A stretch of DNA of 32,000 nucleotides from Halanaerobium saccharolyticum (GTDB lineage Bacteria > Bacillota > Halanaerobiia > Halanaerobiales > Halanaerobiaceae), in contig NZ_QLME01000001.1 in the NCBI RefSeq assembly GCF_003259895.1, positions 26,152 through 58,151 of the forward strand, in the 5' to 3' direction. Positions 8,593 to 24,250 of the stretch are shown here, in pieces. The notes below the pieces were generated by a model. The model saw only the letters and a program-made list of their open reading frames with translations, had not been told where the DNA came from and did not search any database. Numbering within the stretch: the stretch's first letter is position 1; each line of letters starts with the position of its first letter. Made by a program: the position numbers and the translations under genes.

Positions 8593-8617
8593 ACCCTTTC
8601 TAAATAAGGAGGAAATA

Positions 8618-10045
8618 ATGCTTAAAGACGAAACTAATAACTCAGCCAGAAATATCAGGACTGAGGAAGACAGTATCGGCAAAAAAGAAATTTCTGCTGC
8701 AGCCTATACAGGTATCAATACTGCCCGGGCCCGGGAAAATTTTTCTATCAGCCGGGAAAGTGTTCATCCAGAGTTAATTAAGGCTATTGTAATGGTTAAA
8801 CAGGCAGCAGCATTAACCAACCAGGAACTTGGACTGCTTGAGCCAGAAAAAAGCGATGCCATTGTTAAAGCTGCAGCAGAGATCACAGCAGGTAAGTTAA
8901 GTCAGGAATTCAAACTGGAGGCACTGCAGGGAGGAGCCGGAACCTCAACCAATATGATGGTCAATGAGGTAATTGCCAACCGGGCTCTGGAGATTCTGGG
9001 CCATAAAAAAGGTTCTTATCAAATTATCCATCCCAATGATGATGTTAATCAGGGCCAGTCAACAAATGATGTCTACCCAACTGCTCTCAGAATTGCAGTT
9101 TTAAAACTGCTGCAGCCGCTTACTGAATCTGCGGCCAGTCTGCAGCAGGCACTGCAGGAAAAAGAAAAAGAATTCGCTGCCATAATTAAGCTGGGCAGAA
9201 CCCAGCTTCAGGATGCAGTTCCCATTACTCTGGGGCAGGAATTTTCTGCCTATGCAGAAGCTGTCAATAGAGACCGCTGGCGCCTGTATAAAATTACAGA
9301 CCGCCTTAAAAAAATAAATCTGGGAGGAACTGCAGTTGGAACCGGGCTCAATACTTCCCGCAGCTATATTTTTAAGATAGCCAAACATATACGGCAGATT
9401 AGTGGTTTAAGCCTCTCTCATTCTGAAAATATGATAGATATAACCCAGAACATGGATCTATTTGTTGAAGTCTCCGGCTTATTAAAAGCTACAGCTGTTA
9501 ATCTGAATAAAATTGCCAGTGATCTGAGGCTGCTGGCTTCAGGACCAGCAGGTGGAATTGGAGAAATAAAGCTGCCGGCAGTTCAGGCAGGTTCTTCTAT
9601 TATGCCGGGAAAGGTTAATCCGGTAATCTGTGAGCTGATTAATCAGCTGTCAATTGAAATAATCTGCAGTGACCAGGCAGTAACCATGGCAGCCAGAGAC
9701 GGTCAGCTGGAACTGAACGCCTTTTCCCCACTTATCGCTCATAAAATTTTAAATATGCTCGAAATGATGCGAAAGGGAATAGATAAATTTATTAATAAAT
9801 GTATTCAGGGAATTGAGGCCAATCCGGATAGATGCAAAAATTTACTGGAAAGCAGTCTGGCTGTAGTTACAAGTTTAGTTCCCTATATTGGTTATGATCA
9901 GGCCAGCAAACTGGCTGAAGAGGCTATGGAACGGGACAGGACTCTAAAGGAATTGGTTTTAGAAAAAAATCTTTTAAGTCCACAAAAGCTGGTAGAAATC
10001 TTAAAAACAGAAAAAATGACTTCACCAGGCCTAGTAAAAAATTAA
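8618..10045 (+). CDS. aspA: Aspartate ammonia-lyase (fumarase/aspartase superfamily)
   Basis: 475 aa with 'GAGTSTNMMVNEVIANRALE', 'HPNDDVNQGQSTNDVYPTA' and the superfamily signature 'GSSIMPGKVNPV'. Confidence 0.88.
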   Translation: MLKDETNNSARNIRTEEDSIGKKEISAAAYTGINTARARENFSISRESVHPELIKAIVMVKQAAALTNQELGLLEPEKSDAIVKAAAEITAGKLSQEFKLEALQGGAGTSTNMMVNEVIANRALEILGHKKGSYQIIHPNDDVNQGQSTNDVYPTALRIAVLKLLQPLTESAASLQQALQEKEKEFAAIIKLGRTQLQDAVPITLGQEFSAYAEAVNRDRWRLYKITDRLKKINLGGTAVGTGLNTSRSYIFKIAKHIRQISGLSLSHSENMIDITQNMDLFVEVSGLLKATAVNLNKIASDLRLLASGPAGGIGEIKLPAVQAGSSIMPGKVNPVICELINQLSIEIICSDQAVTMAARDGQLELNAFSPLIAHKILNMLEMMRKGIDKFINKCIQGIEANPDRCKNLLESSLAVVTSLVPYIGYDQASKLAEEAMERDRTLKELVLEKNLLSPQKLVEILKTEKMTSPGLVKN

Positions 10046-10130: not shown

Positions 10131-11234
10131 TCAGCCCCAGATCTCTTCTGCAATTTCAACAATTAATTTTAACTTCTGCCACTGATCTTCCTGACTCAGC
10201 TGATTACCATGATGGGTAGAAGCAAAACCACACTGAGGACTGAGGCAGAGCTGACTAAGAGGTATATATTCTGCTGCCTGCCTGATCCTGGCTTTTACTT
10301 TTTCTTTATCCTCCAGCTGACCATCCTTGGAAGTAATTAGACCCAGCACTACCTTTGTCTTTCCTTCAGGAATGTACTTTAAGGGTTCAAAACCACCTGA
10401 ACGCTGATCATCGTATTCCAGAAAAAAACCATCTACCTTTTCCCTGGCAAATAAAGTAGGGGCAATTAAATCATAACTGCCAGAAAAAGCCCAGCTTGAC
10501 TTATAATTCCCCCGACAGAGATGAGTAGTTAGCGATAGATCAGGCGGCTTCACTTCAAGTACACCATTGACCACTTCTAATGCCAGTTCAATTAGATATT
10601 CTCGTGAGAATGGCGCGTCTTGATAAGAAATATCGGGAGAAGAAAGACTGGCAATATAAACATCATCAAACTGCAGATAGCGAACTCCAGCCTCGTAAAA
10701 AGCTTTAAGTGCATCCTGATAGGTCTCAATTATATCCTGTGCATAGTCTTTAATATCTGGATAAATTTCTGAATTCCTAATTCCAAAATGAAACAGCTGA
10801 TTGGGACTCGGGATTGTCTGTTTAGCTGCTGCCCTTCCGTCAACAATTTTATTAAATTCTTTAAAATACTTAAGAAAAGAATGATCAGAATTAAAACTAA
10901 TTTTACCAGTATTACGGACATCATAGGCTTCTGTTTCCAGGTCAGCAAACTGATAACCTTTTTCCGGTACATACCCTTCAAAACCATTCAACTCTTCCAG
11001 AAAGTCAAGGTGCCACCAATCACGTCTAAACTCACCATCTGTAACAAGTTTAAGTCCGGCTTCCAGCTGTTTATTTACCGCTTTTTCTACTTCTTCTCTT
11101 TCAATCTGATGCAGTTCAGCTGCTCCTATTTTCCCTTGCTTAAAATTACTTTTAGCTTTCAACAGCCTCTTCGGCCTCAGTAAACTTCCAACATGATCAG
11201 CCCGAAAAGGTGCCTGAATTTGATCTGCTCCCAT
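10131..11234 (-). CDS. Cobalamin-independent methionine synthase C-terminal-domain-like protein (YxjG/YxjH-type)
   Basis: Track ORF extends to 11321, but an AGGAGGAG site points to ATG at 11234 (MGADQIQAPFRADHVGSLLRP...). Zn ligands look conserved: 'THLCRG' (HxC), 'FFLEYDDQRSGG' (E), 'LSPQCGFAS' (C). Confidence 0.85.
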   Translation of the reverse strand: MGADQIQAPFRADHVGSLLRPKRLLKAKSNFKQGKIGAAELHQIEREEVEKAVNKQLEAGLKLVTDGEFRRDWWHLDFLEELNGFEGYVPEKGYQFADLETEAYDVRNTGKISFNSDHSFLKYFKEFNKIVDGRAAAKQTIPSPNQLFHFGIRNSEIYPDIKDYAQDIIETYQDALKAFYEAGVRYLQFDDVYIASLSSPDISYQDAPFSREYLIELALEVVNGVLEVKPPDLSLTTHLCRGNYKSSWAFSGSYDLIAPTLFAREKVDGFFLEYDDQRSGGFEPLKYIPEGKTKVVLGLITSKDGQLEDKEKVKARIRQAAEYIPLSQLCLSPQCGFASTHHGNQLSQEDQWQKLKLIVEIAEEIWG

Positions 11235-11272
11235 AATTAAAACTCCTCCTCTTAAAAATTTTACTTTACTTA

Positions 11273-11301
11273 AGTATATCATTTTAAGCAGTTTTTTCCA
11301 A
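11273..11301 (-). promoter_or_regulatory. Putative sigma-A promoter for the MetE-like gene
   Basis: Minus strand TTGGAA-17 nt-TATACT with a TGA extended -10; -35 at 11296-11301, -10 at 11273-11278, about 40 bp upstream of the ATG. Confidence 0.6.
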
Positions 11302-11357
11302 TTATCAGAGCAGGACAGCATAATTTTTACTGAAAGAGCAAAATATATATCTATCTT

Positions 11358-12623
11358 TTACAGAAAGCTCTCCCCACTTTCAGGTGCCCTGACTTCAAAA
11401 TAATCCGCAATTGCTGCTGCTATATCAGCCAGACTTTCGCGGGGCGGCAGTACTTTTGCTGGTAAATCTTTTTTGTAAACTAAAAGGGGGACGTTTTCTC
11501 TGGTATGATGGCTGTGGCCTACAGTTGGATCATCACCATGATCAGCTGTAATAATAAAAAGGTCGTCTTCTCGTAAATTATCTATAATCTCCGGTATCTG
11601 CTGATCCACCATTTTTAAGACTCTGGCAAATTCTGCCGGATCCTGCTGATGACCTGCCAGATCAGTTTCCTGGACATTAACGGCAATCAGACCGGAATCA
11701 GCCTCCTCCATTTCCTGCTGCATCAGTTCCAGCACTTCTTCGGTTGCAACAGCAGGCAGTGATTTTCTGGCTTCTGGACAGTAGATTACATCCTGCACTT
11801 TACCAATCAAGCGGACATCTATCCCCTGGCCGGCCAGAATTGAAGTGATCTGTTTTTGATGATCAATTCCATAACCAAGATGGATTACCTGATAACCCTC
11901 TCCATAAACCCCGGAAGCTGTAGAATTAACACCTGTAATCTCAGAATTAGCATTCTCAATACTGTTAACAATCCTCTCAGTGCTTGTATTCTTACCGCCC
12001 AGCGCGATTACCCGACTGACTTTAACACTTGCTCTTACAATTTTTCCGATTGCAAGTATTTCTTCAAAATCTATCTCTTCTAATGAACCGCTGACATTGT
12101 AAATCTGCCCGTAATCAGCCTCAATATTATCCGCAACCACAACCCGCCGATCAACAAGCAGATAGGGATTTTCCTGGTCAGGCACACTAACTTTGTGCCC
12201 TTCATTTTCCAGAGCAGTCTTAACCTTTTGATGCACAACTTTAAAAGGCTGTATTTTAGGATGGGTCGGACTGGAACCCATAATTTCCTGATGTCCCATA
12301 AATGTATCTGCTCCATCATAACTTAAAGCAGCATAAGTATAAGCAGCTTTAAGTTTTTGTTTTTCACTTCCATTTTCCGTCAAATTTCGCTGTTCCGGAT
12401 CCATTTCCAATGTACTTTTGGGAAAACTTGGATCAAGTCTGCTTAAATTATAAGCCGCCTCCAGACCCAGCTGATTAAGGTTATTCAATTTTAAATCTTT
12501 ATTACTTTTTAAAACATTTCCCAGTGTATCTGCGGCCTGATCCTGCAGCCGCTGCTGTTCTTTGAGGTCATCCATTGCTCCAATTCCAAGTCCATCTAAA
12601 ATTAATAAAATTACTCTCTTCAA
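11358..12623 (-). CDS. yhfW: YhfW-like phosphopentomutase/alkaline phosphatase superfamily metalloenzyme
   Basis: 'MKRVILLILDGLGIGAMDD', 'GADTFMGHQEIMG', 'FIITADHGDDPTVGHSHHTRENVPLLVY': DeoB-like metal-site motifs in a yhf gene context. Confidence 0.85.
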   Translation of the reverse strand: MKRVILLILDGLGIGAMDDLKEQQRLQDQAADTLGNVLKSNKDLKLNNLNQLGLEAAYNLSRLDPSFPKSTLEMDPEQRNLTENGSEKQKLKAAYTYAALSYDGADTFMGHQEIMGSSPTHPKIQPFKVVHQKVKTALENEGHKVSVPDQENPYLLVDRRVVVADNIEADYGQIYNVSGSLEEIDFEEILAIGKIVRASVKVSRVIALGGKNTSTERIVNSIENANSEITGVNSTASGVYGEGYQVIHLGYGIDHQKQITSILAGQGIDVRLIGKVQDVIYCPEARKSLPAVATEEVLELMQQEMEEADSGLIAVNVQETDLAGHQQDPAEFARVLKMVDQQIPEIIDNLREDDLFIITADHGDDPTVGHSHHTRENVPLLVYKKDLPAKVLPPRESLADIAAAIADYFEVRAPESGESFL

Positions 12624-13816
12624 AGCCTGCTCCCTCCTTTTTCGTCTAGCAGTTGTCCCTGACTATTATAAATTCCATGCAGTTTTAATTTACCGTTTTG
12701 TATACCGCTAATCACAGCCACTCTGGCTCTGGTAACAAAAATCTGAGTTCTAAAAGCATAGAGTACTGTGTCTCCAATCTTCAATTTTCGATCTCTATTT
12801 TCCAGCGAAGCATAATAATCAATCATCTCAGAATCTGGCTGTGAGGCTGAATAAACTCGACTATTATTTTGATAGTCATCAGCAGCTACCAGTCCATTTT
12901 TTAAGTGGGAACGGCTGTAAAAGCCGCCGCCAAAAGTATATGCCTTGTCATCTTTTAAATGAGATATTTCAGAAATATAGATCATTGCCGGTTTTTCTCC
13001 CTGATCATAATAACCGTGATAAGGGGTAGTTCCTGTCAGGGCATGTCCCGGCTCCCCGTGAGTTGCTCCAGCAGCAGCCAGCCTTGGAATCGTCTTCTGA
13101 CAGCTGACACTTGGGGTATTTAACTGTTCAATTTCCAGCCCAAATTTTTCATTTAAAATTTCCCCTGTCTTTATCACCAGCTCTAAATTGGGAGTAGTTT
13201 CAATTTTTTTAGTCTGATAGTTAAATAAAAGGCAGGGAAAAGCTGTCAGCCCTTTAATTTCAACTCCCTTAAGCTTCATCAATTCAGGGATTACCTGATC
13301 TATATTTTTTAAATCAAAACCTCCAATCTGACCTTCATAATTAAATGAATCCTGACTGTAGATTCTGAGCATTATCGGCTGCACCCTATTCTGCTCCAGG
13401 GCCAACTTCGAAATTTGTTCTGCTTTTTGAAGGCTGTAGACAGTCATAATTTCCGGCTGATAAGCTATCATTTCTGAGAGCATAGAAGTCGGAACCTGAA
13501 CTAGATGACCGACATTTCCCAGTTCAATCCCTGCCTGCGCCAGAGTTCTGGCCTCCCAGGGATCCACAGCAACCGCCTTTTTAATTCCCGCTTCCACTAC
13601 CGCCTGAGCTGCCAGTGGATTTCTCCCCAGCTGTTTGCTCATAAAGTAGAGACTCAAATTATTCTCTGCTGCCGCTTCTGCCATCATAGCCGTATTAGCC
13701 TGAATCTGGTCCAGGTCTAAAATATATGTATTTGGTTCTAAAATATTTTTTCTGTGTAAATAAAAAGCTGTCTCAATTAATTCTGGATTTCTCTGCTGCA
13801 TTTTTTTTAAAAACAT
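12620..13816 (-). CDS. yhfX: YhfX-like alanine racemase N-terminal-domain PLP enzyme
   Basis: 'NTYILDLDQIQANTAMMAEAAAENNLSLYFMSKQLGRNP' (PLP lysine region), 'HGEPGHALTGTTPYHG'. Overlaps the yhfW start by 4 nt. Confidence 0.85.
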   Translation of the reverse strand: MFLKKMQQRNPELIETAFYLHRKNILEPNTYILDLDQIQANTAMMAEAAAENNLSLYFMSKQLGRNPLAAQAVVEAGIKKAVAVDPWEARTLAQAGIELGNVGHLVQVPTSMLSEMIAYQPEIMTVYSLQKAEQISKLALEQNRVQPIMLRIYSQDSFNYEGQIGGFDLKNIDQVIPELMKLKGVEIKGLTAFPCLLFNYQTKKIETTPNLELVIKTGEILNEKFGLEIEQLNTPSVSCQKTIPRLAAAGATHGEPGHALTGTTPYHGYYDQGEKPAMIYISEISHLKDDKAYTFGGGFYSRSHLKNGLVAADDYQNNSRVYSASQPDSEMIDYYASLENRDRKLKIGDTVLYAFRTQIFVTRARVAVISGIQNGKLKLHGIYNSQGQLLDEKGGSRL

Positions 13817-13818
13817 GA

Positions 13819-14928
13819 TTATCCCTGCCCTTTTAAAGCGGATATAGTTTCTTTAATGATTCTAATAACTGTATCAGCACCGGCCCGCATCGGATTAATC
13901 CGCACCAGATATTTTTCTGCTTCCGGATTTTCCTGTCTAAAAGTTCCCGAAATCCTGTAAAACATGGCTCCAATCTCATAGCGTGATTCTGAACCAACAG
14001 GATAGGGCACCCCTCCCTGCTCATTAACTGCTGCCAGAAAATCACGGGCTATTGCCTGCTCAAATTCTATAATCACAACTTTAGACTGAGCATTGGCAAT
14101 AAATGAATTTTTAACCGCTTCAACTTCTCCCTGATTGAGGCGCTGATTAACCTCTTCTACAGTCTGAGCCTGAATTGCCAGACTGACAGGTGTATTTACC
14201 ATGGACCGGAGAGCATCCATCGCCTCTGGACCCTGCACCTGACTGCCGCCCGAATAATTAATTGCTTCAACTTTATCTAAATATTTTTTCTTACCCACAA
14301 GCAGTCCGATTCCAGGTGGTCCCTGCAGTTTAAAAAGCGAAAAAGTACTCAAATCAGCACCTCTTTCAACCCCAATTTGCTCAACTTTCATTGCTGCATA
14401 GTTGTCATCTGTGATTATTGGTGTTTCGGGATATTTGGCCTTCAATATTTTTATAACTCTGCCAAAATCATAGCTGTCATCTATTTTCTGACGGCTGTGC
14501 TGAACTAAAATAGCTGCAAAATCTTCTGCCGGCAGCAATTTCTGAGCTTCCATTTCCTTTAAGCGATTGAAATCAAATTTTTTAGTTTCTAAATCCATGC
14601 TTTTAAATGTTACTTCAGTTGTTGGATAAACTGCTGCCTCGTGAATTAAAACTTTAGACCCCACCTCAAGATTGGCATTGAAAAAAGCTCTAATTGCACC
14701 AGTGCCTGCTCCTCTAACTAAAAGAGCCTTTTCCGCCCCAAAAAAGTCTGCCAGAACCTTCTCGACTCTGGCTGTATAGCGGGGCTTTTTAAATTCGGGG
14801 TCAAGTCCATAGTCACCTGCCTGCAAAAGCTCTGCTCCCTTAAATTGGCGCTGAATTGCATCTACAAGTTTCTGCTGCAATTTTATGGCTTGTTCCAGGC
14901 TAAGTGATTTAAGAGGATAAGTCTGCAT
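13819..14928 (-). CDS. yhfS: YhfS-like PLP-dependent aminotransferase-fold enzyme
   Basis: 'GAGTGAIRAFFNANL', 'PIITDDNYAAMK', 'ADLSTFSLFKLQGPPGIGLLVG' (Schiff-base Lys context). The GGAGG position favours ATG at 14928 rather than the track start at 14943. Confidence 0.84.
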   Translation of the reverse strand: MQTYPLKSLSLEQAIKLQQKLVDAIQRQFKGAELLQAGDYGLDPEFKKPRYTARVEKVLADFFGAEKALLVRGAGTGAIRAFFNANLEVGSKVLIHEAAVYPTTEVTFKSMDLETKKFDFNRLKEMEAQKLLPAEDFAAILVQHSRQKIDDSYDFGRVIKILKAKYPETPIITDDNYAAMKVEQIGVERGADLSTFSLFKLQGPPGIGLLVGKKKYLDKVEAINYSGGSQVQGPEAMDALRSMVNTPVSLAIQAQTVEEVNQRLNQGEVEAVKNSFIANAQSKVVIIEFEQAIARDFLAAVNEQGGVPYPVGSESRYEIGAMFYRISGTFRQENPEAEKYLVRINPMRAGADTVIRIIKETISALKGQG

Positions 14929-14960
14929 TTTTAAAACCTCCATTTATAAAATAATAGCTT

Positions 14961-15857
14961 TTATGAAAATAATTTTGCCGGATTATGAATCAGGATGCCT
15001 TCAATCTCTTCTTCGCTTACAGCTGCTGCTTTTAATTTAGGAATAAATTTTTCAAAAAGATACTGATAACTGTGGCCGTCATTTGCTTTTAAATGTGACA
15101 TCCGGGTAATATCTGTCGAAATTAAAACTTGATCTTTAAACCCTGCTTTAAGCAGGGCCTTAATCAGTCTAATTCTGAATTGATCACTCTGGTATTTTAA
15201 CTTACCAATGGTATCAATGCCGATAAATACTCCTCTGGCGGCAAGCTCCAGCACATAATCAATATCAGCTGCCAGATCAAGATGACTGAGGGCCACCCGG
15301 GATAAATCTGCACCGGCTTTTTCTAAAATTTCAAGCTGCTCCAGACCACAGCTGCCAAGTGTCAGGTGGGTAATAATCGGAACTCCTGTCTCCTTCTGGG
15401 CGAGGGCGGCAGCCTGCAGTAATTTTTTCTCAGCTGCAGTTATTTCCTGACTGGTGCCAACTTCTCCAATCACACCGGCTTTAATATCTGTCCCCTCAAT
15501 CCCTTCCTTAATTTCGCTGACCATTAATTCGACCAGTTCCTGTTTAGTCTTTTGGTAGAAAAAATCTGGCAGATAGGGTTCTTTGTAAAAGCCTGTGCTG
15601 GCAATAATATTCATTCCCAGCTGATCAGCCAGATAGCGGAGTCTTGCTGTATCTCTTCCCATCCCGATATTAGTCAGTTCGACAATCGTTTTAACTCCGG
15701 CCTTTTTTATTTCTTTAAGATCCTGCAGCAGAGCCTCACCTTCCAGCCGGGCATCGGGATCATTTTTCTGCTCTGTAAGATCTATAGTTAAATGTTCGTG
15801 ATACATTGTAATTCCCATCGCTTCTGCTTTTATTTGTTTATTCAAAGTATTGATCAA
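14961..15857 (-). CDS. php: Php-like phosphotriesterase homology protein (amidohydrolase superfamily)
   Basis: 'MYHEHLTIDL' (HxH), 'GVIGEVGTSQEIT' (Glu where PTE has carbamylated Lys), 'VPIITHLTLG', 'VALSHLDLAAD', 'LISTDITRM'. TTG start with AGGAG upstream; overlaps the upstream gene by 20 nt. Confidence 0.88.
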   Translation of the reverse strand: MINTLNKQIKAEAMGITMYHEHLTIDLTEQKNDPDARLEGEALLQDLKEIKKAGVKTIVELTNIGMGRDTARLRYLADQLGMNIIASTGFYKEPYLPDFFYQKTKQELVELMVSEIKEGIEGTDIKAGVIGEVGTSQEITAAEKKLLQAAALAQKETGVPIITHLTLGSCGLEQLEILEKAGADLSRVALSHLDLAADIDYVLELAARGVFIGIDTIGKLKYQSDQFRIRLIKALLKAGFKDQVLISTDITRMSHLKANDGHSYQYLFEKFIPKLKAAAVSEEEIEGILIHNPAKLFS

Positions 15858-16962
15858 AATTATCAGCTCCTAAAAAATCATTTTCTTTTTCAGCATAATT
15901 TTTGAGAAAATATCTTGCAAAAAGTTCCGGCCGCTTATAGCATTTTTGTAAACGCTCAGCCAATTTAATCACTTTAAATCCATTTTTTATACCTGGTCTG
16001 GCCAGTAAAACTATAGCAAGACCGAGCCTGTCAGTGGGGATAGTAACAGCAGTTGCATTGACCAGATTGGCTGCCCGCATTAGATATTTACCGCTCTTTT
16101 TCTGGGCAGCCTCAGCAATTTTAAAACTGCCGGCAACAGAATCACCATAACCATAATAATCAACAGGTCCTTCTGCAGTTATTATAATCTCATTTCCCTG
16201 CTCAAACGCCTTTTCTATAATCTGAATTGCCTGTTTTCGATCTTCACTGCCCTTAAGATTAATTCTATTTAGATTAAAATCACTCAACTCAGCTTCTATT
16301 TCTGCAGTTACAGCAGCCATATCTTCTCCCTGAGGTAATAAAACACTTTTCACCTCAGGCAGAGCAATAGTCAGATCTTTGTTTAACTCAACATCTTTAC
16401 TCAAAGCCCACTGCTCTGGGGCAAGAATCTTTTTTAAAGCCAGAGTGCAGAGTTTAAAATCGTGAGAAATAAAGCCGATTCCAGGCCTGAATTCTAAATT
16501 ATCAGTTGAAATTCTCTTGTTAGTTGCCTGAAGTCCCATACCTTTAGCCATCAGGGAAGACAGAGAAACCGAGGCTGCAGGAGCTAAAACTGAACCTCCA
16601 CCATCTGTTCCCACCGCAAGATCGTTTATTCCCCGGAGAATATTTAGACAGCCTCCACTGCTGGAACCAGTCATCACTCTCAAAGTTAAAGGATTGATTA
16701 GCTCAGGATCGACTGCTCTCCCACCTCTGGCCATCTTATCAATTGTATGTAAAAGAAAAGTCTGATCCTCAGTTAATTTATCCACTAATTTTTTTGAAAT
16801 TTGAGAGGTGTTTTTAATACCCAGCAGATAATGTTCTTGCCTGGATTCGGCCAATTCTGACAGCCTCTTTTTCAGGCCGCTGTTGTGATAAACCACTGCT
16901 TTAGAACTGCTGGCAAGAGCATTATTAAATTTTTTCTTTAAATCCAGGTTTAAATTATTCAT
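15838..16962 (-). CDS. Compact, divergent amidase-signature family protein embedded in the yhf-type cluster
   Basis: 374 aa; 'TGSSSGGCLNILRGINDLAVGTDGGGSVLAPAASVSL' matches the Ser-cis-Ser core of the amidase signature, followed by 'LQATNKRIS...FRPGIGFISHDFKLCTLALKKI'. Possible catalytic Lys in 'HTIDKMARGG'. Confidence 0.72.
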   Translation of the reverse strand: MNNLNLDLKKKFNNALASSSKAVVYHNSGLKKRLSELAESRQEHYLLGIKNTSQISKKLVDKLTEDQTFLLHTIDKMARGGRAVDPELINPLTLRVMTGSSSGGCLNILRGINDLAVGTDGGGSVLAPAASVSLSSLMAKGMGLQATNKRISTDNLEFRPGIGFISHDFKLCTLALKKILAPEQWALSKDVELNKDLTIALPEVKSVLLPQGEDMAAVTAEIEAELSDFNLNRINLKGSEDRKQAIQIIEKAFEQGNEIIITAEGPVDYYGYGDSVAGSFKIAEAAQKKSGKYLMRAANLVNATAVTIPTDRLGLAIVLLARPGIKNGFKVIKLAERLQKCYKRPELFARYFLKNYAEKENDFLGADNFDQYFE

Positions 16963-17022
16963 ATTTACTCCTTAATTTGAGCCCGAAAATTTTAGAATTC
17001 CCGGGCTCAATTTCAATTGTAT

Positions 17023-18303
17023 TTAGACTAAAGAAAATAAAGCGAAAATATTAGCAATAATACCAACCATTATAGCTGCTGTAGGTCCAACTGCCATTCT
17101 TACTATTGGCTGATCTCCAATTTCGTTTAAAATATAGAGTCCGGCCACAAAGAAAAACCCAAATCCTGGTATGATTGCATTGGCAGCATTCATACCTCCA
17201 ACTAAGAGGGCTACTTCTAAAACTTTAGACATCGAAGTCCTAATATTATCACCGGCTTTTTTAATTCCAGGAAACTTATCAAGCAGAGTTGCAACTTTAC
17301 CCAGTAATAAAATCTCTATGGAAATAATTACAGCACCTACAATTGCAGCAATCAATGGGTTCTGAATAAATAGAGCCGCTGCAAAAATAAATGTCATTCC
17401 TACAGGCCCATATACTCCTGTAGCTATTGCTGTAGTAGCAATTAAAGGAACAAAACCAACTGCTCTGGCTAAAGCAGCAAGTGCAGCTTCATTTATTGCA
17501 CCCTCACTTACTAAGTTTAAGGAAATAGGATCTCCTGCCAGAATTAGATAAGCAGTAGCAGCCGAAACTAATCCACCCATCACAGCTAAATAGGGTAAGT
17601 TGCTTTTAATTCTTTCCACCCTTTTACTAAAAATTGAAACTAAATCACCAACATTACTTTCTTCTCCCTTTTCTCCAGCGGCGAAGATTAATAAGGTTGT
17701 CATACCAGCAATTAGTGCCATTCCTTCGGGATTAATACTTATTTCAAGACCATTAATCATTAAGGGGCTAACAACAACTGCAATTTGTCTCACTATTCCA
17801 GTAAGGATTAAAGTAAATCCACCTTTTTTGATTCCAAACTGATAAGCAACAGCCAGGGCAGGGAAAGCAGCAAAGGCTACAACTATTGGACTACCTACAG
17901 CTCCCAGATCTTCTAAAAAGTTAACAGGTAAAACTTCAAATAAATTTACAATTGCTTCCAGACCATAAGTTAAACCAACACCATATAGAGCACCAACTAC
18001 TCCAGCGCCAGCTGCACCTTTGTTATTATCTGGGGCCCAGGTACCAATAATATCTGTACCCAATAAAATACTATGTATTAAAATAATATTTGCCGATAAA
18101 CTAAATGGAATTCCAAAACCAACAACCAGACCAAAACTCATAGCAAAAGAAGTAGCAGCAAGTTCTTTACGGCTCATTCTATTTTCTACATATTCTGGTA
18201 TTACCGGACGCAAACTATCATTAAATACAGCAATCCCCTTATTTGCAAGTATAGCAGCCATTCCACCAATTAAAGCCATTAGTATTAATTGCATTATTCT
18301 CAC
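17023..18303 (-). CDS. yhfT: YhfT-like multi-pass membrane protein
   Basis: 426 aa, strongly hydrophobic with many TM segments, directly linked to YhfU/YhfY/YhfZ-like ORFs. Confidence 0.83.
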   Translation of the reverse strand: MRIMQLILMALIGGMAAILANKGIAVFNDSLRPVIPEYVENRMSRKELAATSFAMSFGLVVGFGIPFSLSANIILIHSILLGTDIIGTWAPDNNKGAAGAGVVGALYGVGLTYGLEAIVNLFEVLPVNFLEDLGAVGSPIVVAFAAFPALAVAYQFGIKKGGFTLILTGIVRQIAVVVSPLMINGLEISINPEGMALIAGMTTLLIFAAGEKGEESNVGDLVSIFSKRVERIKSNLPYLAVMGGLVSAATAYLILAGDPISLNLVSEGAINEAALAALARAVGFVPLIATTAIATGVYGPVGMTFIFAAALFIQNPLIAAIVGAVIISIEILLLGKVATLLDKFPGIKKAGDNIRTSMSKVLEVALLVGGMNAANAIIPGFGFFFVAGLYILNEIGDQPIVRMAVGPTAAIMVGIIANIFALFSLV

Positions 18304-18327: not shown

Positions 18328-18684
18328 TTAGTTTAAAATGTTCTTTAATAAAAGAGTCACAGCTTTTTCTAAATGATCTGAAGTAAAACCAAAAGCAACT
18401 TTTCCTGCTTCAAGTTCTTCAACTATTTTTTCCTCTTTAGGTGGCTTAGCAGGCATTGAAATCGTAGCGCATTTAGTGCTGCTCAAGATTGCCATGGCCA
18501 TTCCTAATGCTCCTCCACCACCGGTATGACAGGCACCAAAATAATAATCAGCTTTTCCCTGCTTAATTGTATTCGCCGCTTTAATATCATCCATGATCTC
18601 TACCTCTACTTGATCACCGGCAATTTCTTTAATTTTTTTAGCAATTTTTTGTTTGTCAACCTGACCGCCTACAACTATCTTCAT
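18328..18684 (-). CDS. yhfU: YhfU-like protein (DUF2620)
   Basis: 118 aa 'MKIVVGGQVDKQKIAKKIKE...GKADYYFGACHTGGGGALGMAMAIL...'; adjacent to yhfT, overlaps the preceding gene by 1 nt. Confidence 0.8.
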   Translation of the reverse strand: MKIVVGGQVDKQKIAKKIKEIAGDQVEVEIMDDIKAANTIKQGKADYYFGACHTGGGGALGMAMAILSSTKCATISMPAKPPKEEKIVEELEAGKVAFGFTSDHLEKAVTLLLKNILN

Positions 18685-19058
18685 TATTTATTCCCCCCCT
18701 CTTTTTTTATTAAATTACCAAAATGTAAAACTAAATAATTTTTTTCTCCAGCTGGAATTTCAATTTCGGTTTCAGCTTCAATTTGCTCTATAAAATCCAT
18801 ACAGTCAGAATAAAATTTTTCTTTTTTTAACTCTGCTAAAACCATCTCATTTAAATCTTCTACTTCTTCACCTTTTTTTATCCTCATCAGAGCCATCGGT
18901 AAATGGGTTACCAGCATTGCTGCATTCTCATTTTTTAATTCTAAATTAAAATCTGATTCAAACTTTTTCAATAAACTTTCTATCTTTTTCTTTAGTTCTG
19001 TTTCCAGTTGATCACCTTCAACTAAAATCTCTAATCTCTGTTTTAATTTAGGATCCAT
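18684..19058 (-). CDS. yhfY: YhfY-like stand-alone PRD-domain protein
   Basis: 124 aa with PRD-like histidine contexts 'AAMLVTHLPMALMRIKKGEEVE' and 'NYLVLHFGNLIKK'; located between yhfZ and yhfU. Confidence 0.75.
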   Translation of the reverse strand: MDPKLKQRLEILVEGDQLETELKKKIESLLKKFESDFNLELKNENAAMLVTHLPMALMRIKKGEEVEDLNEMVLAELKKEKFYSDCMDFIEQIEAETEIEIPAGEKNYLVLHFGNLIKKEGGNK

Positions 19059-19068
19059 TCTCTTCCTC

Positions 19069-20004
19069 CTAATACTCAGGAATTAATTTGTGATTATATA
19101 CTTCTTTTTGAGCTTTAATTACCTCTTCAGGATCAATTGTCTTGGCTAAAATCCTCTTAATCATTCTGCTGTTTTTATTAACCAAAATTACCGCATTACT
19201 GATATCTTTATTTTTGGCAGTCGATTTATCATTCTGCAGTTCAGTAAAGTTTATATTATCAAGGTCTTTAATCTCATCATAATTCCAGACTGCTGCATCT
19301 ATAGTTTTATTTTTTATATGCTCCATTATTTTCATGTAGGTCAATTCTATAAATTCTACATCCTGATTTTGACATTCCAGCTTTGTTAGTATCTTATGAT
19401 CAATAGAAGTTGAATCAAGTCCAACTTTCATCCCATTTTCAATTTTTGCAGCTTCCGGATCCGAAAAAACTATCACATGTTTAGAAAGATAGGTACCCGG
19501 TCCAAATTCACAAAAAAGTTCAAATTGATCCCGATCTTCATGATTCTGGGCAGCAAATTTAGATAAAACAATAAAATCATATTTATCATCTTTTAAGACA
19601 TTCAATCGTTTTTCCGCACCTCTGGTATAGGCAATACTGTAATTAAAATCTGCTTTTTTAAACTCCTGATTTAATCCAGTTGCCAGCCCCTCATAACGCA
19701 GAGAATAAGGCAGTGGTAAAAGTCCCATTATCATTCCTAAATCTGCAATTTCCCAGAGCAGGTGATAATCTAAATCAAGAATATAGCTGCCTAAATGTCC
19801 TTTTGATTCCAGCTCTACAGCCTGATGTTCAGTTAAAAATGATATTGCAGACTGGATAGTGCCTCGTCCGGTGTTATAGCGCTCCGCATAACCACTAATT
19901 GTATCAATTCTTTCGCCTTTGTTTTTTAAGAAAAAATCCCGGGCCAGCATTGAAGTTATGAAGCCGATTTTTGACATCATTTTGCTCTTTATTTCAGAAA
20001 CCAT
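19069..20004 (-). CDS. yhfZ: YhfZ-like transcriptional regulator (GntR-like winged HTH plus binding domain)
   Basis: 311 aa; N-terminal 'RIDTISGYAERYNTGRGTIQSAISFLTEHQAVELESKGHLGSYI' wHTH, C-terminal periplasmic-binding-protein-like region; first gene of the cluster, GGAGG upstream. Confidence 0.83.
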   Translation of the reverse strand: MVSEIKSKMMSKIGFITSMLARDFFLKNKGERIDTISGYAERYNTGRGTIQSAISFLTEHQAVELESKGHLGSYILDLDYHLLWEIADLGMIMGLLPLPYSLRYEGLATGLNQEFKKADFNYSIAYTRGAEKRLNVLKDDKYDFIVLSKFAAQNHEDRDQFELFCEFGPGTYLSKHVIVFSDPEAAKIENGMKVGLDSTSIDHKILTKLECQNQDVEFIELTYMKIMEHIKNKTIDAAVWNYDEIKDLDNINFTELQNDKSTAKNKDISNAVILVNKNSRMIKRILAKTIDPEEVIKAQKEVYNHKLIPEY

Positions 20005-20201: not shown

Positions 20202-20939
20202 TTATAACAATTTAGCCGAATCTTCATCTAAAAAGACATCTGTACTTTTATGCTCTTTTAAAATTGAGGCAGGACAGTCAACTGTAACTTCATCACCAGC
20301 TAAACAATTCTTAACTGCCTCAGCTTTTCTGGCGCCGGGTACTGTGCAGATAATATTTTCGGACTTCATAATTTGTTTAACTGTCATCGTAATCGCATTT
20401 TTTGGAACATCAGCAATAGTCTCAAACCAGCCTTCTTTAACCTGCTGTTTTCTGGAAACATCATCCAGCTCAACAATAATAAATGGATCCTCTTCTTCAA
20501 AATCTGCAGGTGGTTCATTAAAAGCCAGATGACCATTTTCACCTATGCCAACAAATGCAGCCTGAATTTTATCTTCTTCCTTAATTTTTTGATTTAAGCT
20601 CTGACATTCTTTTTCCGGATCATTCATCCCATCTATTAAGTTAATTTCTTTTAATTCACCAACTTCAGAGATAAAGTTTTCTTTAATATATTTTCTAAAA
20701 CTAGCCTTATGAGTTTCGTCTAGCCCGAGATATTCATCTAAATGATAAAGTTTAGTTTTGGACCAATCTATATCATCGAATTCTACTAATTCAGCTAAAA
20801 AATCAAGTTGAGAATTACCGGTAGCGATGATAAATACTGCTTCCCCATCTTTTTCGATGCTTTCAATCAAAATTTCTCTAGCTCTTTCTGCGGCGTATTT
20901 ACTTGTTGTTTTTTTGTCCTGATAAACATTTATTTTCAT
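20202..20939 (-). CDS. nagB: Glucosamine-6-phosphate deaminase family protein
   Basis: 245 aa; 'FIIATGNSQLDFLAEL', 'KLYHLDEYLGL', 'AAFVGIGENGHLAFNEPPADF', 'ITMTVKQIMKSENIICTVPGARKAEAV'. Confidence 0.85.
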   Translation of the reverse strand: MKINVYQDKKTTSKYAAERAREILIESIEKDGEAVFIIATGNSQLDFLAELVEFDDIDWSKTKLYHLDEYLGLDETHKASFRKYIKENFISEVGELKEINLIDGMNDPEKECQSLNQKIKEEDKIQAAFVGIGENGHLAFNEPPADFEEEDPFIIVELDDVSRKQQVKEGWFETIADVPKNAITMTVKQIMKSENIICTVPGARKAEAVKNCLAGDEVTVDCPASILKEHKSTDVFLDEDSAKLL

Positions 20940-21195: not shown

Positions 21196-21834
21196 CTAAA
21201 CTTCTCTGGCCTTTGCTATTTTTTCAACAAAAGCCGCCGCAGTTTGAGTCACTTTATCAAAATCTCCAGTTTTGGCACCAGCAGTAAGGGAACTGCCAAC
21301 TCCAACCGCTGCACTTCCGGCCTTAATCCATTCTGCAACATTATCCAGACTAACTCCTCCAGTAGGCAGCAGTGGTGCCTGGGGTACTGGTCCTTTAATT
21401 GCTTTGATGATCTTTGGTCCAAAAAGCGAGGCCGGGAAAATTTTAACTAAATCAGCACCCGCTTCCATAGCTTTTACTACCTCAGTTACTGTCATTGCTC
21501 CCGGGATTACAGGCTTCTGATATCTATTAGCTAACTTAACCATCTCCTCATTAAAAGAGGGACTGACAATGTATTCCGCCCCTGCCAGAATACAGGTTCT
21601 AGCAGTTTCGGCATCCAGAACAGAACCAGCTCCTATTATGATCTCCTCTCCCTCAAATTCTTTACTTAATTCAGAGATAACATCCACCGCTCCGGGAACT
21701 GTCATGGTGATTTCCAGACCTTTTATTCCTCCTTTTTTGACTGCCCGCGCAATCTTGACTGCCTCATCTCCATTTTGAGCTCTAATCACAGCAACGATAC
21801 CTGTTTCCTGCAGTTTATTAATTGTATTCATCAT
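21196..21834 (-). CDS. eda: 2-dehydro-3-deoxy-phosphogluconate/KDG aldolase family protein (Eda-like)
   Basis: 'TGIVAVIRAQNGDEAVKIARAVKKGGIKGLEITMTVPGA', 'GAGSVLDAETARTCILAGAEYIVSP', 'KIFPASLFGPKIIKAIKGPVPQAPLLPTGGV'. Track ORF starts at 21882; GGAAGG supports ATG at 21834. Confidence 0.9.
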   Translation of the reverse strand: MMNTINKLQETGIVAVIRAQNGDEAVKIARAVKKGGIKGLEITMTVPGAVDVISELSKEFEGEEIIIGAGSVLDAETARTCILAGAEYIVSPSFNEEMVKLANRYQKPVIPGAMTVTEVVKAMEAGADLVKIFPASLFGPKIIKAIKGPVPQAPLLPTGGVSLDNVAEWIKAGSAAVGVGSSLTAGAKTGDFDKVTQTAAAFVEKIAKAREV

Positions 21835-23287
21835 AATCATCCTTCCGCTTAGTTTTTTGATACCAGTATTTATACTTCTCAAACCGCGACTGATAAAATT
21901 GATGCCGCTCTAAATTAAAATCGATAACTTTACCAGCTTCTGGCTGATAATTACTTAAATCTTTAATTTCTCCCAGAGCCTTTAGCCCCAGGATTATTGA
22001 TCCCATCGTCGAAGAATCTTTAAATTCCGATACAATCATTTTTCTTCCAAAAATATCGGCAGCCATCTGCAGCCACTTCTCAGAATTTGTAATACCACCA
22101 GAAATCCTTATTTTTTCCGGTTTTAAACCCATTTCTTCAATAATTAAATAGGACTGGTAAAGGTTGAATAAAACTCCTTCCAGAATTGAATAATATAAGT
22201 CGGCAGATAAATGGCTGCCTTTCAGCTCACAGAACTGGGCTTTTCGCTTATCCTGCCAGCCGGGACATCGCTCACCATAAATAAAAGGCAAAAAAATTGG
22301 AGCTTTATTTTTGTTTACATCTTTGAGAGAGTTTTCTAATTCCATGAAGTTAGAATCATTTTCTTTTATCTTATTTTTAAACCACTGAGTACAGTTGCCG
22401 GCCCCAGAAGTAGCTGCCCCGACTATCCTTTTTCCTTCAGCCCCATAATAGCACCAGGTAGCTGGTGCAGACGGAATTTTAGCTTTACTGGATGTAACCC
22501 GCAGGGCCCCGCTGGTGCCAACCGAGAGGGTCATCAGCTTAGATTTTAAACCACCTGCCGCTATCTGATTAAGAGCTCCATCTGGTCCGGGAATTAAGAC
22601 AGGCAACCCAGGTTTTAAGCCAAGTTTTAGCGCCGCTTTTTTAGTTAAGCCAGCCTGATAATTAAGTTTTTTTAGTGGTGATAACTGTTTGGCTGAAAGA
22701 CCGGCAAAATCAAGTATTTCCTGGTCCCAGCTGAGATCATGAATATTAAAGATCCCTGTTCCCGAAGCTGATGCTAGAGAAATTGCCCGGCTTTTAGTTA
22801 ATTTCTCAAAAATATATTCTGGTTTAGATGAAAGATAGATTTGATCCACTTTAAAGCTGCTTTTATCTAAATTCATAAACTTCCAGAGAGGATAAATACT
22901 GTGCACAGGACAGCCTGTTTTTTGATATATCTTTTGAGCTAATTTTTTCTTTTTTCTGTACTTTGACACTGTCTCACCGGCAGAGGTATCAGCCCAGGTT
23001 AAAATCTCAGTCAGGGGCTTTCTATCCTGATCTAAAAGCAGGAAGCTGTGCCAGGTGCTGACCAGAGTTATTAATTCTATCTTGTTTTTTTCTGCCTGAG
23101 TCAGATCATTAATTAACTGCACAGCAGTCTTGATAATAAAATTATATAAAAGCTGGGCTGACTGCCTTTCCATATCTCCAGTCGTCTGCTCATAATTTTT
23201 GCTTAGATTTTTAATAATTCCCTTTGCCCGGGAAAACAGTGTCACTTTAACAGCTGAAGTACTAAACTCCAGAGCCAGAATGTACAT
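21818..23287 (-). CDS. FGGY-family carbohydrate kinase (gluconate/xylulose kinase-like)
   Basis: 'YILALEFSTSAVKVTLF', 'LPVLIPGPDGALNQIAAGGL', 'TLSVGTSGALRVTS', 'ERCPGWQ', 'KIRISGGITNSEKWLQMAADIFGRKM'. Confidence 0.88.
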   Translation of the reverse strand: MYILALEFSTSAVKVTLFSRAKGIIKNLSKNYEQTTGDMERQSAQLLYNFIIKTAVQLINDLTQAEKNKIELITLVSTWHSFLLLDQDRKPLTEILTWADTSAGETVSKYRKKKKLAQKIYQKTGCPVHSIYPLWKFMNLDKSSFKVDQIYLSSKPEYIFEKLTKSRAISLASASGTGIFNIHDLSWDQEILDFAGLSAKQLSPLKKLNYQAGLTKKAALKLGLKPGLPVLIPGPDGALNQIAAGGLKSKLMTLSVGTSGALRVTSSKAKIPSAPATWCYYGAEGKRIVGAATSGAGNCTQWFKNKIKENDSNFMELENSLKDVNKNKAPIFLPFIYGERCPGWQDKRKAQFCELKGSHLSADLYYSILEGVLFNLYQSYLIIEEMGLKPEKIRISGGITNSEKWLQMAADIFGRKMIVSEFKDSSTMGSIILGLKALGEIKDLSNYQPEAGKVIDFNLERHQFYQSRFEKYKYWYQKTKRKDDYDEYN

Positions 23288-23311
23288 TTTTTACCTCCTC
23301 AAATATCAATA

Positions 23312-24127: not shown

Positions 24128-24250
24128 TTTAAACCTCCTAATTTTCTCGCTAAATTTAATCTGTTATCTCCAATCAATCTTTTCTGAGCCTGAGTCCAGT
24201 CCTCTCCTAATTTCAGGCCAATCATTTGCATCCTAATTCTGGCTAATTTT

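What the first reader, a model, noticed from the sequence alone, without database searches (positions are those of the whole stretch)
15838..16962. Compact, divergent amidase-signature protein inserted between yhfT and php
This extra gene, absent from the E. coli yhf cluster as I know it, shows the amidase Ser-cis-Ser core (GSSSGG...GTDGGGS), but the region from the possible catalytic Lys (HTIDKMARGG) to that core is much shorter than in typical amidases. The whole protein is only 374 aa. Its stop overlaps the php start by 20 nt, suggesting coupled translation and a shared step. An amide-bond hydrolase would be a strong clue to the pathway's substrate.
Basis: partly seen in the sequence, partly recalled or inferred. 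Interest (0 to 1): 0.78.

Follow-up and report, generated by a model that had tools for sequence, protein, structure and literature searches.

The report
Minimal amidase tied to yhf operon
The gene is a real but unusually small member of the amidase-signature enzyme family, found almost only inside copies of the uncharacterised yhf operon, so it is a useful though not revolutionary clue that this orphan pathway handles an amide-containing compound.

Summary
The ORF is real: window 15838-16962, minus strand, 374 aa. It is identical to a Halanaerobium saccharolyticum protein that NCBI already labels 'amidase'.

**Family.** It belongs to the amidase-signature (AS) superfamily.
- Pfam Amidase scores 30.4 bits against a cut-off of 27, but only over the core.
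- The AlphaFold model (pLDDT 89.9) matches only AS enzymes in the PDB (E about 1e-12, TM 0.55-0.66, 10-17% identity).
- The cis-Ser (S100) and nucleophile Ser (S124) align without gaps to malonamidase E2 S131/S155. Both are invariant in 118 of 118 family members.

The proposed Lys (K76, HTIDK) is conserved in only 54 of 118 members. The invariant Lys is K50, in the motif G-[IV]-K-[ND].

**Compactness.** The protein is truly small. About 25 residues after the Lys and a block of about 85 residues are missing relative to GatA.

**Distribution.** The family is small (about 115 clusters among 1.84 billion representatives). It is almost confined to yhf-type clusters (77 of 80 genome loci), in several different gene orders. 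It is optional: E. coli, a B. thuringiensis plasmid, a Vibrio plasmid and a human-gut lineage lack it.

**Most likely role.** An active accessory hydrolase feeding an amide-bearing substrate into the yhf pathway. The substrate is unknown.

The parts
15838..16962 (-). Compact amidase-signature (AS) protein, 374 aa
   Evidence: ORF. 100% identical to NCBI 'amidase [Halanaerobium saccharolyticum]'. Pfam PF01425 30.4 bits, gathering score 27. AF2 model pLDDT 89.9. Foldseek top hits are all AS amidases.
16813..16815 (-). K50, proposed catalytic Lys in the motif G48-I-K50-N51
   Evidence: Invariant in 118/118 members. Lies at the end of predicted strand E45-50, before the helix that aligns to GatA 104-112. 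The best local hhalign places K50-N51 on GatA K79-D80, but not significantly.
16735..16737 (-).
   Evidence: K in only 54/118 members. The segment aligns to GatA 'MDEFAMGG'.
16576..16668 (-). AS core: G99-S100-S101-S102-G-G ... G118-T119-D-G-G-G-S124-V-L-A-P128-A129
   Evidence: Ungapped HMM alignment to malonamidase E2 G130-S131-S132-S133 ... T150 ... S155. S100, S102, D120-S124, P128 and A129 are invariant.
16663..16665 (-). S100, equivalent of the cis-Ser (MAE2 S131, GatA S154)
16591..16593 (-). S124, equivalent of the nucleophile Ser (MAE2 S155, GatA S178); 24 residues after S100, as in canonical AS enzymes
16968..16973 (-). Shine-Dalgarno AAGGAG, 5 nt before the amidase ATG
   Evidence: Sequence read.
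15838..15857 (-). 20-nt overlap between the amidase 3' end/stop and the php TTG start (php SD AGGAG at 15867-15871)
   Evidence: The junction is conserved in L001-L003.
17023..18303 (-). YhfT-family membrane protein, upstream neighbour
   Evidence: Pfam PF10797, 573.8 bits.
14961..15857 (-). Php (phosphotriesterase-family hydrolase), downstream neighbour
   Evidence: Pfam PF02126, 293.7 bits. Closest PDB entry is E. coli Php 1bf6/4lef.
18328..20004 (-). YhfZ regulator (19069-20004), PRD protein YhfY (18684-19058), DUF2620/YhfU (18328-18684)
11358..14943 (-). YhfS (13819-14943), YhfX (12620-13816), YhfW phosphomutase-like (11358-12623)

Best explanation
The gene encodes a catalytically competent but structurally pared-down amidase-signature hydrolase with the triad K50 / cis-Ser S100 / nucleophile S124. 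It belongs to a small, sharply bounded subfamily that is dedicated to the yhf pathway.

It is an optional, peripheral step. It most likely hydrolyses an amide bond (a carboxamide or N-acyl link) in a variant of the pathway's imported substrate. The product can then be processed by the core enzymes: Php hydrolase, the YhfS and YhfX PLP enzymes, and the YhfW phosphomutase.

Shown: superfamily membership, conservation of the catalytic residues, and the genomic linkage. Inferred: hydrolytic activity, the position of the step in the pathway, and the nature of the substrate.
For: Family membership:
- Pfam Amidase is above its gathering score.
- The high-confidence AF2 model has only AS enzymes among its top PDB neighbours at E about 1e-12.
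- Profile-profile match to GatA has 94.6% probability over aa 56-311.
- S100, S102, T119 and S124 align without gaps to MAE2 S131, S133, T150 and S155.
- K50, S100 and S124 are invariant in 118/118 members.

Linkage to the yhf pathway:
- 77 of 80 genome loci seeded with the amidase carry yhf genes alongside, on the same strand and in several different orders.
- Distant members P0117 and P0120 (34-38% identity) are also next to yhf clusters.
- The family has only about 115 clusters at E<=1e-30 among 1.84 billion representatives.

Accessory character:
- E. coli, a B. thuringiensis plasmid and a Vibrio plasmid lack it.
- A human-gut lineage and others lack it in the YhfT-seeded metagenome sample.
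- The gene often sits at cluster edges. In L054 and L062 it sits with a second, divergent YhfT paralogue.
Against: - No activity data exist, and no substrate can be deduced.
- The equivalence of K50 with the canonical Lys rests on invariance, the K-[ND] motif and predicted topology. The sequence alignment there is not significant, and the 3D geometry could not be inspected.
- The family lacks the conserved loop after the Lys and a block of about 85 residues that in GatA lies over the active site. The pocket, and perhaps the chemistry, may therefore differ from known amidases.
- Two genomes (L023, L035) carry the gene away from any yhf cluster.
Confidence: 0.68

Rival explanations
1. The amidase is a functional alternative to Php (non-orthologous, partly redundant hydrolase). 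Both would open the same kind of bond (amide, lactam or ester) in the pathway substrate, and clusters carry one, the other or both.
For: - Clusters exist with Php only (E. coli, B. thuringiensis, Vibrio, a gut lineage), with both (most loci), and with the amidase but no Php (L047, L060).
- The mammalian Php homologue PTER is an amide hydrolase, acting on N-acetyltaurine (PMC11374699).
- The two genes are adjacent or overlapping in the commonest arrangement.
Against: - Most amidase-bearing clusters keep Php, which argues for two distinct steps.
- Php-less cases are few (2 clear loci), and Php could lie elsewhere in those genomes.
- The closest characterised bacterial PTE-family relatives named by NCBIfam are lactonases, not amidases.
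Confidence: 0.15
2. It is a GatA-like glutaminase or ammonia-donor subunit that supplies ammonia or an amide group to another enzyme of the cluster, giving an amidotransfer rather than a catabolic hydrolysis.
For: GatA is among the best sequence and structure matches.
Against: - The NCBIfam gatA model scores 21.8 bits against a cut-off of 481.
- No gatB- or gatC-like partner is present in any examined cluster.
- The block of about 85 residues that includes GatA's substrate-binding helical region is deleted.
- The cluster has a transporter and regulators typical of catabolism.
Confidence: 0.05
3. It is a degenerate or non-catalytic AS-fold protein (binding or regulatory subunit), or a passenger gene unrelated to the yhf pathway.
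For: - It shows large deletions relative to canonical AS enzymes.
- It gives only a partial Pfam match (profile 119-247 of 445).
- It is absent from many yhf clusters.
Against: - The presumptive triad and some 35 other positions are invariant over sequences down to about 35% identity.
- Linkage to yhf genes survives repeated gene-order rearrangement.
Confidence: 0.07

Closest known systems
Malonamidase E2 (MAE2, Bradyrhizobium japonicum; PDB 1ocl/1obl etc., 412-414 aa)
   Same: - AS fold (Foldseek E about 1e-11, TM 0.55-0.58).
- The core aligns without gaps: G130-S131-S132-S133 matches G99-S100-S101-S102, T150 matches T119, and S155 matches S124.
- Both are single-domain and at the short end of the AS length range.
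   Different: - Only about 15% identity.
- Lys to cis-Ser is 69 residues in MAE2 and 50 here.
- MAE2 R158, the position mutated in 1obk, is Ala127 here.
- This family is about 45 residues shorter at the median (369 aa) and goes down to about 300 aa.
- MAE2 is not linked to yhf genes.
GatA, glutaminase subunit of GatCAB amidotransferase (PDB 2df4, 3kfu; 485 aa)
   Same: - Best profile-profile match: 94.6% probability, aa 56-311 against GatA 104-444.
- The same S-(24)-S spacing.
- The HTID-x-x-x-GG motif matches GatA 'NMDEFAMGG'.
   Different: - About 23-25 residues following the Lys (GatA 81-103) are missing.
- About 85 residues (GatA about 300-385) are missing.
- The N-terminus is shorter.
- The Arg of GGS-I-R-x-P is absent.
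- There are no GatB/GatC partners.
- It fails the NCBIfam gatA cut-off by a wide margin.
Other solved AS amidases: 2dc0 amidase, allophanate hydrolase (4gys, 4iss), NylA (3a2q), FAAH, and urethanase-type amidases (9je9, 9giz)
   Same: Same fold, all with Foldseek probability 1.0.
   Different: - 10-17% identity and TM only 0.52-0.66.
- All are longer; every hit listed in the table has a target length of 376 residues or more.
- None of the NCBIfam amidase equivalogs is passed (best 31.7 bits against cut-offs of 391-559).
E. coli yhfZYXW-php-yhfUTS cluster
   Same: All eight gene families are present in the window, at 29-49% identity.
   Different: - The E. coli cluster has no amidase, and its gene order differs.
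- The function of the cluster is unknown in both organisms. The PDB entries for YhfS, YhfX and Php are labelled uncharacterised, and no paper on its function was found.

Membership tests
Amidase-signature (AS) superfamily, Pfam PF01425 | Significant match to the family profile at or above the curated threshold | tested here: met
   30.4 bits against gathering score 27, E 2.7e-7, but covering only profile positions 119-247 of 445. Many family members carry no precomputed PF01425 hit.
Amidase-signature (AS) superfamily, Pfam PF01425 | AS fold | tested here: met
   AF2 model has pLDDT 89.9 and pTM 0.90. All 50 listed Foldseek PDB hits are AS enzymes, E 2.5e-12 to 1.5e-10, probability 1.0, TM (query-normalised) 0.52-0.66.
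Amidase-signature (AS) superfamily, Pfam PF01425 | Nucleophile Ser and cis-Ser in the Gly/Ser-rich signature, 24 residues apart | tested here: met
   S100 and S124 align without gaps to MAE2 S131 and S155. Both are invariant in 118/118 members.
Amidase-signature (AS) superfamily, Pfam PF01425 | Catalytic Lys upstream of the signature | tested here: inconclusive
K50 is invariant in 118/118 members, has a K-[ND] motif, and lies at the end of predicted strand 45-50. The alignment to GatA K79 appears only in a non-significant local alignment (E 0.05), and the full-length extension puts it elsewhere with zero confidence.
Amidase-signature (AS) superfamily, Pfam PF01425 | Ser-cisSer-Lys side chains in hydrogen-bonding geometry | not testable with these tools
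Amidase-signature (AS) superfamily, Pfam PF01425 | Amide-bond hydrolase activity | not testable with these tools
   Requires an enzyme assay.
GatA (TIGR00132) and the other named NCBIfam amidase equivalogs | Score above the curated full-length cut-off | tested here: not met
   Best scores are 31.7 and 31.6 bits against cut-offs of 391 and 463. gatA scores 21.8 against 481.
GatA (TIGR00132) and the other named NCBIfam amidase equivalogs | GatB/GatC partners encoded alongside | tested here: not met
   None is present in the window or in related loci. Compare the gatC-gatA-gatB operons.
yhf-type gene cluster (YhfZ, YhfY, YhfU, YhfT, Php, YhfS, YhfX, YhfW) | Consistent co-location of the gene with the cluster across genomes | tested here: met
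   77 of 80 genome loci, plus L087, L168 and L169/L170. Exceptions are L023 and L035 (a different context) and L064 (contig too short).
yhf-type gene cluster (YhfZ, YhfY, YhfU, YhfT, Php, YhfS, YhfX, YhfW) | Present in all such clusters (a core component) | tested here: not met
   Absent from E. coli K-12, the B. thuringiensis and Vibrio plasmid clusters, and many complete YhfT-seeded metagenome clusters.

The most novel reading that the evidence does not exclude
This is a previously undescribed minimal architecture of the amidase-signature fold, 300-380 aa. It has lost the post-Lys loop and the lid-like block of about 85 residues, yet keeps an intact triad.

It would have evolved as a dedicated entry enzyme, or as a Php-replacing enzyme, of the orphan yhf pathway. 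Identifying its amide substrate would then reveal what the long-unexplained E. coli yhf/php operon metabolises. A plausible candidate class is an amidated or N-acylated, amino-acid-like compound, possibly a phosphorylated sugar-acid derivative.
Probability: 0.25. Interest if true: 0.65.

Novelty: new variant of a known kind. Interest (0 to 1): 0.45.

Why it matters
The yhfS-yhfZ/php operon is one of the conserved E. coli gene clusters whose function remains unknown. Three of its proteins have solved structures, but none has an assigned substrate, and no paper on its function was found.

A dedicated amidase that travels with this cluster in Clostridia, Bacilli, Fusobacteria, Negativicutes, a Treponema and an Izimaplasma genome narrows the chemistry. 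At least one natural substrate form would contain a hydrolysable amide.

The protein also offers a small, soluble, assayable entry point. Purified enzyme could be screened against amide libraries, and ligands of the YhfZ regulator could be searched for.

Structurally, it would be among the smallest AS enzymes. It is therefore useful for defining the minimal AS catalytic scaffold.

It is not a new kind of enzyme. Automated annotation already calls it 'amidase'.

Tried and rejected
Rejected by conservation (54/118) and by alignment to GatA 'MDEFAMGG'.
- **My first assignment of S102 as the cis-Ser.** Corrected to S100 after the ungapped alignment with MAE2, whose PDB mutant names fix the numbering.
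- **Canonical amidases in the fetched loci for a profile comparison.** None were present. tblastn of the query against plasmids found only one family member. GatA genes were therefore fetched from plasmid records instead.
- **Full-length hhalign with a low MAC threshold.** The N-terminal extension has zero confidence and does not place K50 on K79. A restricted N-terminal alignment does place it there, but is not significant.
- **Literature on the yhf cluster.** Nothing functional was found.
[quoted passage not shown] The closest entry is E. coli YhfS itself, followed by weak hits to Cys/Met-metabolism enzymes and cysteine desulfurases.
- **A 'transporter + M20 + phosphomutase + amidase' module in L023 and L035 as a parallel pathway.** Weakened, because the mutase is a bona fide GlmM by the NCBIfam cut-off and is probably housekeeping.
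- **Promoter and terminator scans.** Counts were not above the shuffled expectation.
Full report
**1. The observation**

An ATG-to-TAA ORF of 374 aa occupies window 15838..16962 on the minus strand. It has an AAGGAG Shine-Dalgarno 5 nt upstream. It is 100% identical to a protein that NCBI labels 'amidase [Halanaerobium saccharolyticum]'. The same contig turned up in a metagenome scan as L088, Ga0182239_1000078.

The ORF lies in a nine-gene minus-strand cluster whose other members Pfam identifies as follows:
- YhfZ (19069-20004)
- a PRD protein, YhfY (18684-19058)
- DUF2620/YhfU (18328-18684)
- YhfT (17023-18303)
- PTE/Php (14961-15857)
- YhfS (13819-14943)
- YhfX (12620-13816)
- a YhfW-type phosphomutase (11358-12623)

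The annotated E. coli K-12 region carries yhfZ-yhfY-yhfX-yhfW-php-yhfU-yhfT-yhfS with no amidase.

The 20-nt overlap with php depends on php starting at TTG 15857. That start has an AGGAG 9 nt upstream, whereas the next in-frame ATG (M14) has no consistent Shine-Dalgarno. The junction AGGAGCTGATAATTTTG is identical in three other Halanaerobium species, including one whose amidase is only 61% identical. The overlap is plausible and conserved in this genus.

**2. What the protein is**

Pfam Amidase (PF01425) scores 30.4 bits against a gathering score of 27 (E 2.7e-7). It covers only aa 90-207, which corresponds to profile positions 119-247 of 445. No NCBIfam amidase equivalog comes near its cut-off: the best scores are about 32 bits against cut-offs of 391-559.

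An AlphaFold2 model built on a 39-sequence family alignment is confident (pLDDT 89.9, pTM 0.90). Its Foldseek neighbours in the PDB are exclusively AS enzymes: 2dc0, allophanate hydrolase, GatA, malonamidase E2, NylA, FAAH and urethanases. They match at E about 1e-12 and probability 1.0, but with only 10-17% identity and TM 0.52-0.66.

A family profile aligns the core without gaps to malonamidase E2. The PDB mutant names (K62A, G130A, S131A, S133A, T150A, S155C, R158Q) fix the MAE2 numbering. The correspondences are:

| Window protein | MAE2 |
|---|---|
| G99 | G130 |
| S100 | S131 (cis-Ser) |
| S102 | S133 |
| T119 | T150 |
| S124 | S155 (nucleophile) |

The spacing from S100 to S124 is the canonical 24 residues. 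The same spacing holds for GatA S154 and S178.

**3. The Lys**

In 118 full-length family members, K76 is Lys in only 54. K50, in the motif G48-[IV]-K50-[ND], is invariant, as are S100 and S124. The HTID-x-x-x-GG segment aligns to GatA 'NMDEFAMGG' (residues 123-130), far downstream of GatA K79.

K50 ends predicted strand 45-50. Six residues later comes the helix (57-64) that hhalign aligns confidently to GatA 104-112. This is the topology expected for the catalytic Lys if roughly 23 residues after it are deleted.

A restricted N-terminal profile alignment does place L46-x-G48...K50-N51 on GatA L71-x-G73...K79-D80, followed by a 16-residue gap. However, it is not significant on its own (E 0.05), and the full-length extension is uninformative. 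K50 is thus the well-supported candidate, but its equivalence is inferred rather than shown. The 3D geometry could not be inspected with the tools available.

**4. How it is compact**

Lys to cis-Ser is 50 residues here, against 69 in MAE2 and 75 in GatA. The hhalign alignment to GatA (94.6% probability, aa 56-311 against GatA 104-444) shows a further gap of about 85 residues (GatA about 300-385) and shorter termini.

Family members listed range from 269 to 413 aa. The 117 members of at least 320 aa that were aligned have a median of 369 aa. One abundant member (P0120) is 302 aa. Every chain listed in the Foldseek table is 376 residues or longer.

The Arg of the common GGS-I-R-x-P motif is absent (S124-V-L-A-P). 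Family-specific invariant polar residues include T73, D75, R82, D85, N90, N107, S152, T153, R242, E264, K292, N299 and Y351. These are candidates for substrate binding; that is my inference.

**5. Family size and distribution**

A profile search of 1.84 billion 50%-identity representatives finds 115 proteins at E<=1e-30, 156 at E<=1e-10 and 938 at E<=1e-3. The family is small and sharply separated from ordinary amidases. Members come from Clostridia, Bacilli, Negativicutes, Fusobacteria, Synergistaceae, a Treponema, Symbiobacteriaceae and an Izimaplasma.

**6. Genomic context**

Of 80 genome loci retrieved with the amidase alone, 77 carry yhf genes next to it on the same strand. The position of the amidase varies:
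- YhfT-amidase-Php, the commonest arrangement
- YhfX-amidase-PRD (Bacilli)
- amidase-YhfZ
- YhfW-amidase (Clostridium paraputrificum and C. tertium types)
- Php-amidase

In Marinilactibacillus it is divergently transcribed from the operon. Linkage that persists through this much rearrangement is strong evidence of a shared function.

The exceptions are:
- L064, whose contig is too short to judge.
- L023 and L035 (C. polynesiense and C. amylolyticum). There the gene follows a YfcC-like transporter, an M20 amidohydrolase and glmM.

**7. The converse: is it a core gene?**

Clusters found through YhfT often lack the amidase. Examples are E. coli, a B. thuringiensis plasmid and a Vibrio halioticoli plasmid. 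In the metagenome sample, a redundant human-gut lineage and several others also lack it, although many other distinct clusters have it.

A few clusters have the amidase but no Php (L047, L060). Two Negativicutes-type loci pair it with a second, divergent YhfT (L054, L062). The gene is therefore an accessory, not a core component.

**8. Mechanism**

Shown: AS superfamily fold, conserved Ser and cis-Ser, an invariant Lys, and tight but optional linkage to the yhf cluster.

Inferred: the protein is an active Ser-cisSer-Lys hydrolase that performs a peripheral step. Most likely it converts an amide-bearing form of the imported compound into the substrate of the core enzymes. Its optional presence, its edge positions and its association with a second transporter paralogue all fit an entry or funnelling role.

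A rival is partial functional equivalence with Php, given the either/or/both pattern. The mammalian Php homologue PTER is an N-acetyltaurine amidohydrolase (PMC11374699). A GatA-like ammonia-donor role and a non-catalytic role are unlikely, for the reasons given under the rival explanations.

The substrate cannot be named. Two PLP enzymes, a phosphomutase, a PRD protein, and a recurrent NagB-like neighbour suggest an amino-acid-like, probably phosphorylated, sugar-derived compound. This is speculation.

**9. Comparison and novelty**

The protein is a member of the AS superfamily. Threshold, fold and the two serines are met. The Lys is inconclusive, and geometry and activity are untestable here. 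It is not a member of any named amidase family.

No paper on the yhf cluster's function was found. The PDB entries for YhfS (4j8l), YhfX (4kbx) and Php (1bf6, 4lef) are uncharacterised. I rate it a new structural and contextual variant of a known enzyme kind.

**10. Verdict**

The finding is real and largely correct in outline. It is wrong on the Lys, and over-generalised on coupling with php. It is of moderate interest, mainly as a handle on an orphan operon.

Noticed in passing
window 16978-17009 (minus strand, between the yhfT stop at 17023 and the amidase ATG at 16962): An 8-bp GC-rich hairpin (TGAGCCCG ... CGGGCTCA, 16-nt loop) with no T-run. Hairpins of different sequence occupy the same intergenic position in two other Halanaerobium genomes (L002, L003) but not in L001. 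A promoter-like match (17016..16989) overlaps it, but promoter-like counts in the region are not above chance.
   Followed up: partly
L023 3965-9354 and L035 5606-11083: In C. polynesiense and C. amylolyticum the amidase homologue is not in a yhf cluster. It follows a YfcC/DcuC-like transporter, an M20 amidohydrolase (TIGR01891) and glmM, with different outer flanks in the two genomes. The M20 and transporter neighbours hint at N-acyl or amino-acid-derived substrates. glmM is probably housekeeping.
   Followed up: partly
L047 7024-14898; L060: These yhf-type clusters contain the amidase but no Php gene within the 10-kb flanks (YhfZ-YhfU-YhfT-amidase-PRD-YhfS-YhfX-YhfW). Their YhfT is a divergent type, about 44% identical to the window's.
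   Followed up: partly
L054 1289-11020; L062: These clusters have two YhfT paralogues. One (58% identity) sits with Php-YhfS-YhfX-YhfW. A second (43-46% identity) is followed by a NYN-domain gene, YhfU and the amidase. This may indicate two related substrates.
   Followed up: partly
window 20202-20939 (minus strand); also L005, L007, L010, L011, L080 and 17 metagenome loci: A NagB-like gene (glucosamine-6-phosphate deaminase / 6-phosphogluconolactonase family, below NCBIfam cut-offs) lies just upstream of yhfZ in the window. In many other loci it lies directly after YhfW, including in clusters without the amidase. It is a second recurrent accessory gene of the cluster.
   Followed up: partly
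window 18328-18684 (YhfU/DUF2620) and 18684-19058 (PRD protein): YhfU carries the motif 'YYFGACHTGGGGALGMA' and overlaps the stop of a single-PRD-domain protein by one base. A PRD partner and a Cys-His/Gly-rich small protein next to the YhfT membrane protein suggest a PTS-like phosphorylation relay. This is untested.
   Followed up: no
window 21196-25555 (minus strand); L168 10132-18934: Sugar-acid catabolism genes lie immediately upstream of the cluster: KDPG/KHG aldolase, an FGGY kinase whose start overlaps the aldolase gene, an SDR and a LarA-N-like protein. In Marinilactibacillus the yhf cluster is likewise next to KDPG-type aldolases, DHDPS-like lyases, SIS proteins and a PTS.
   Followed up: no
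window 10131-11321 (minus strand): A MetE-like (cobalamin-independent methionine synthase family, PRK06520 subfamily) gene follows yhfW with a 36-nt gap. Among all loci examined it accompanies the cluster only in the window's own contig, so it is probably unrelated.
   Followed up: partly
L169 9001-9909 (P0120): A 302-aa family member with 167 member sequences sits in the same YhfT-amidase-PTE position. Its end coincides with the first base of the PTE gene (both at 9909). It is an even more reduced version of the fold.
   Followed up: no
window 7345-10045 (plus strand): A HydF [FeFe]-hydrogenase maturase GTPase and an aspartase/fumarase-class lyase lie on the opposite strand, downstream of the cluster. 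They appear unrelated to the finding.
   Followed up: no
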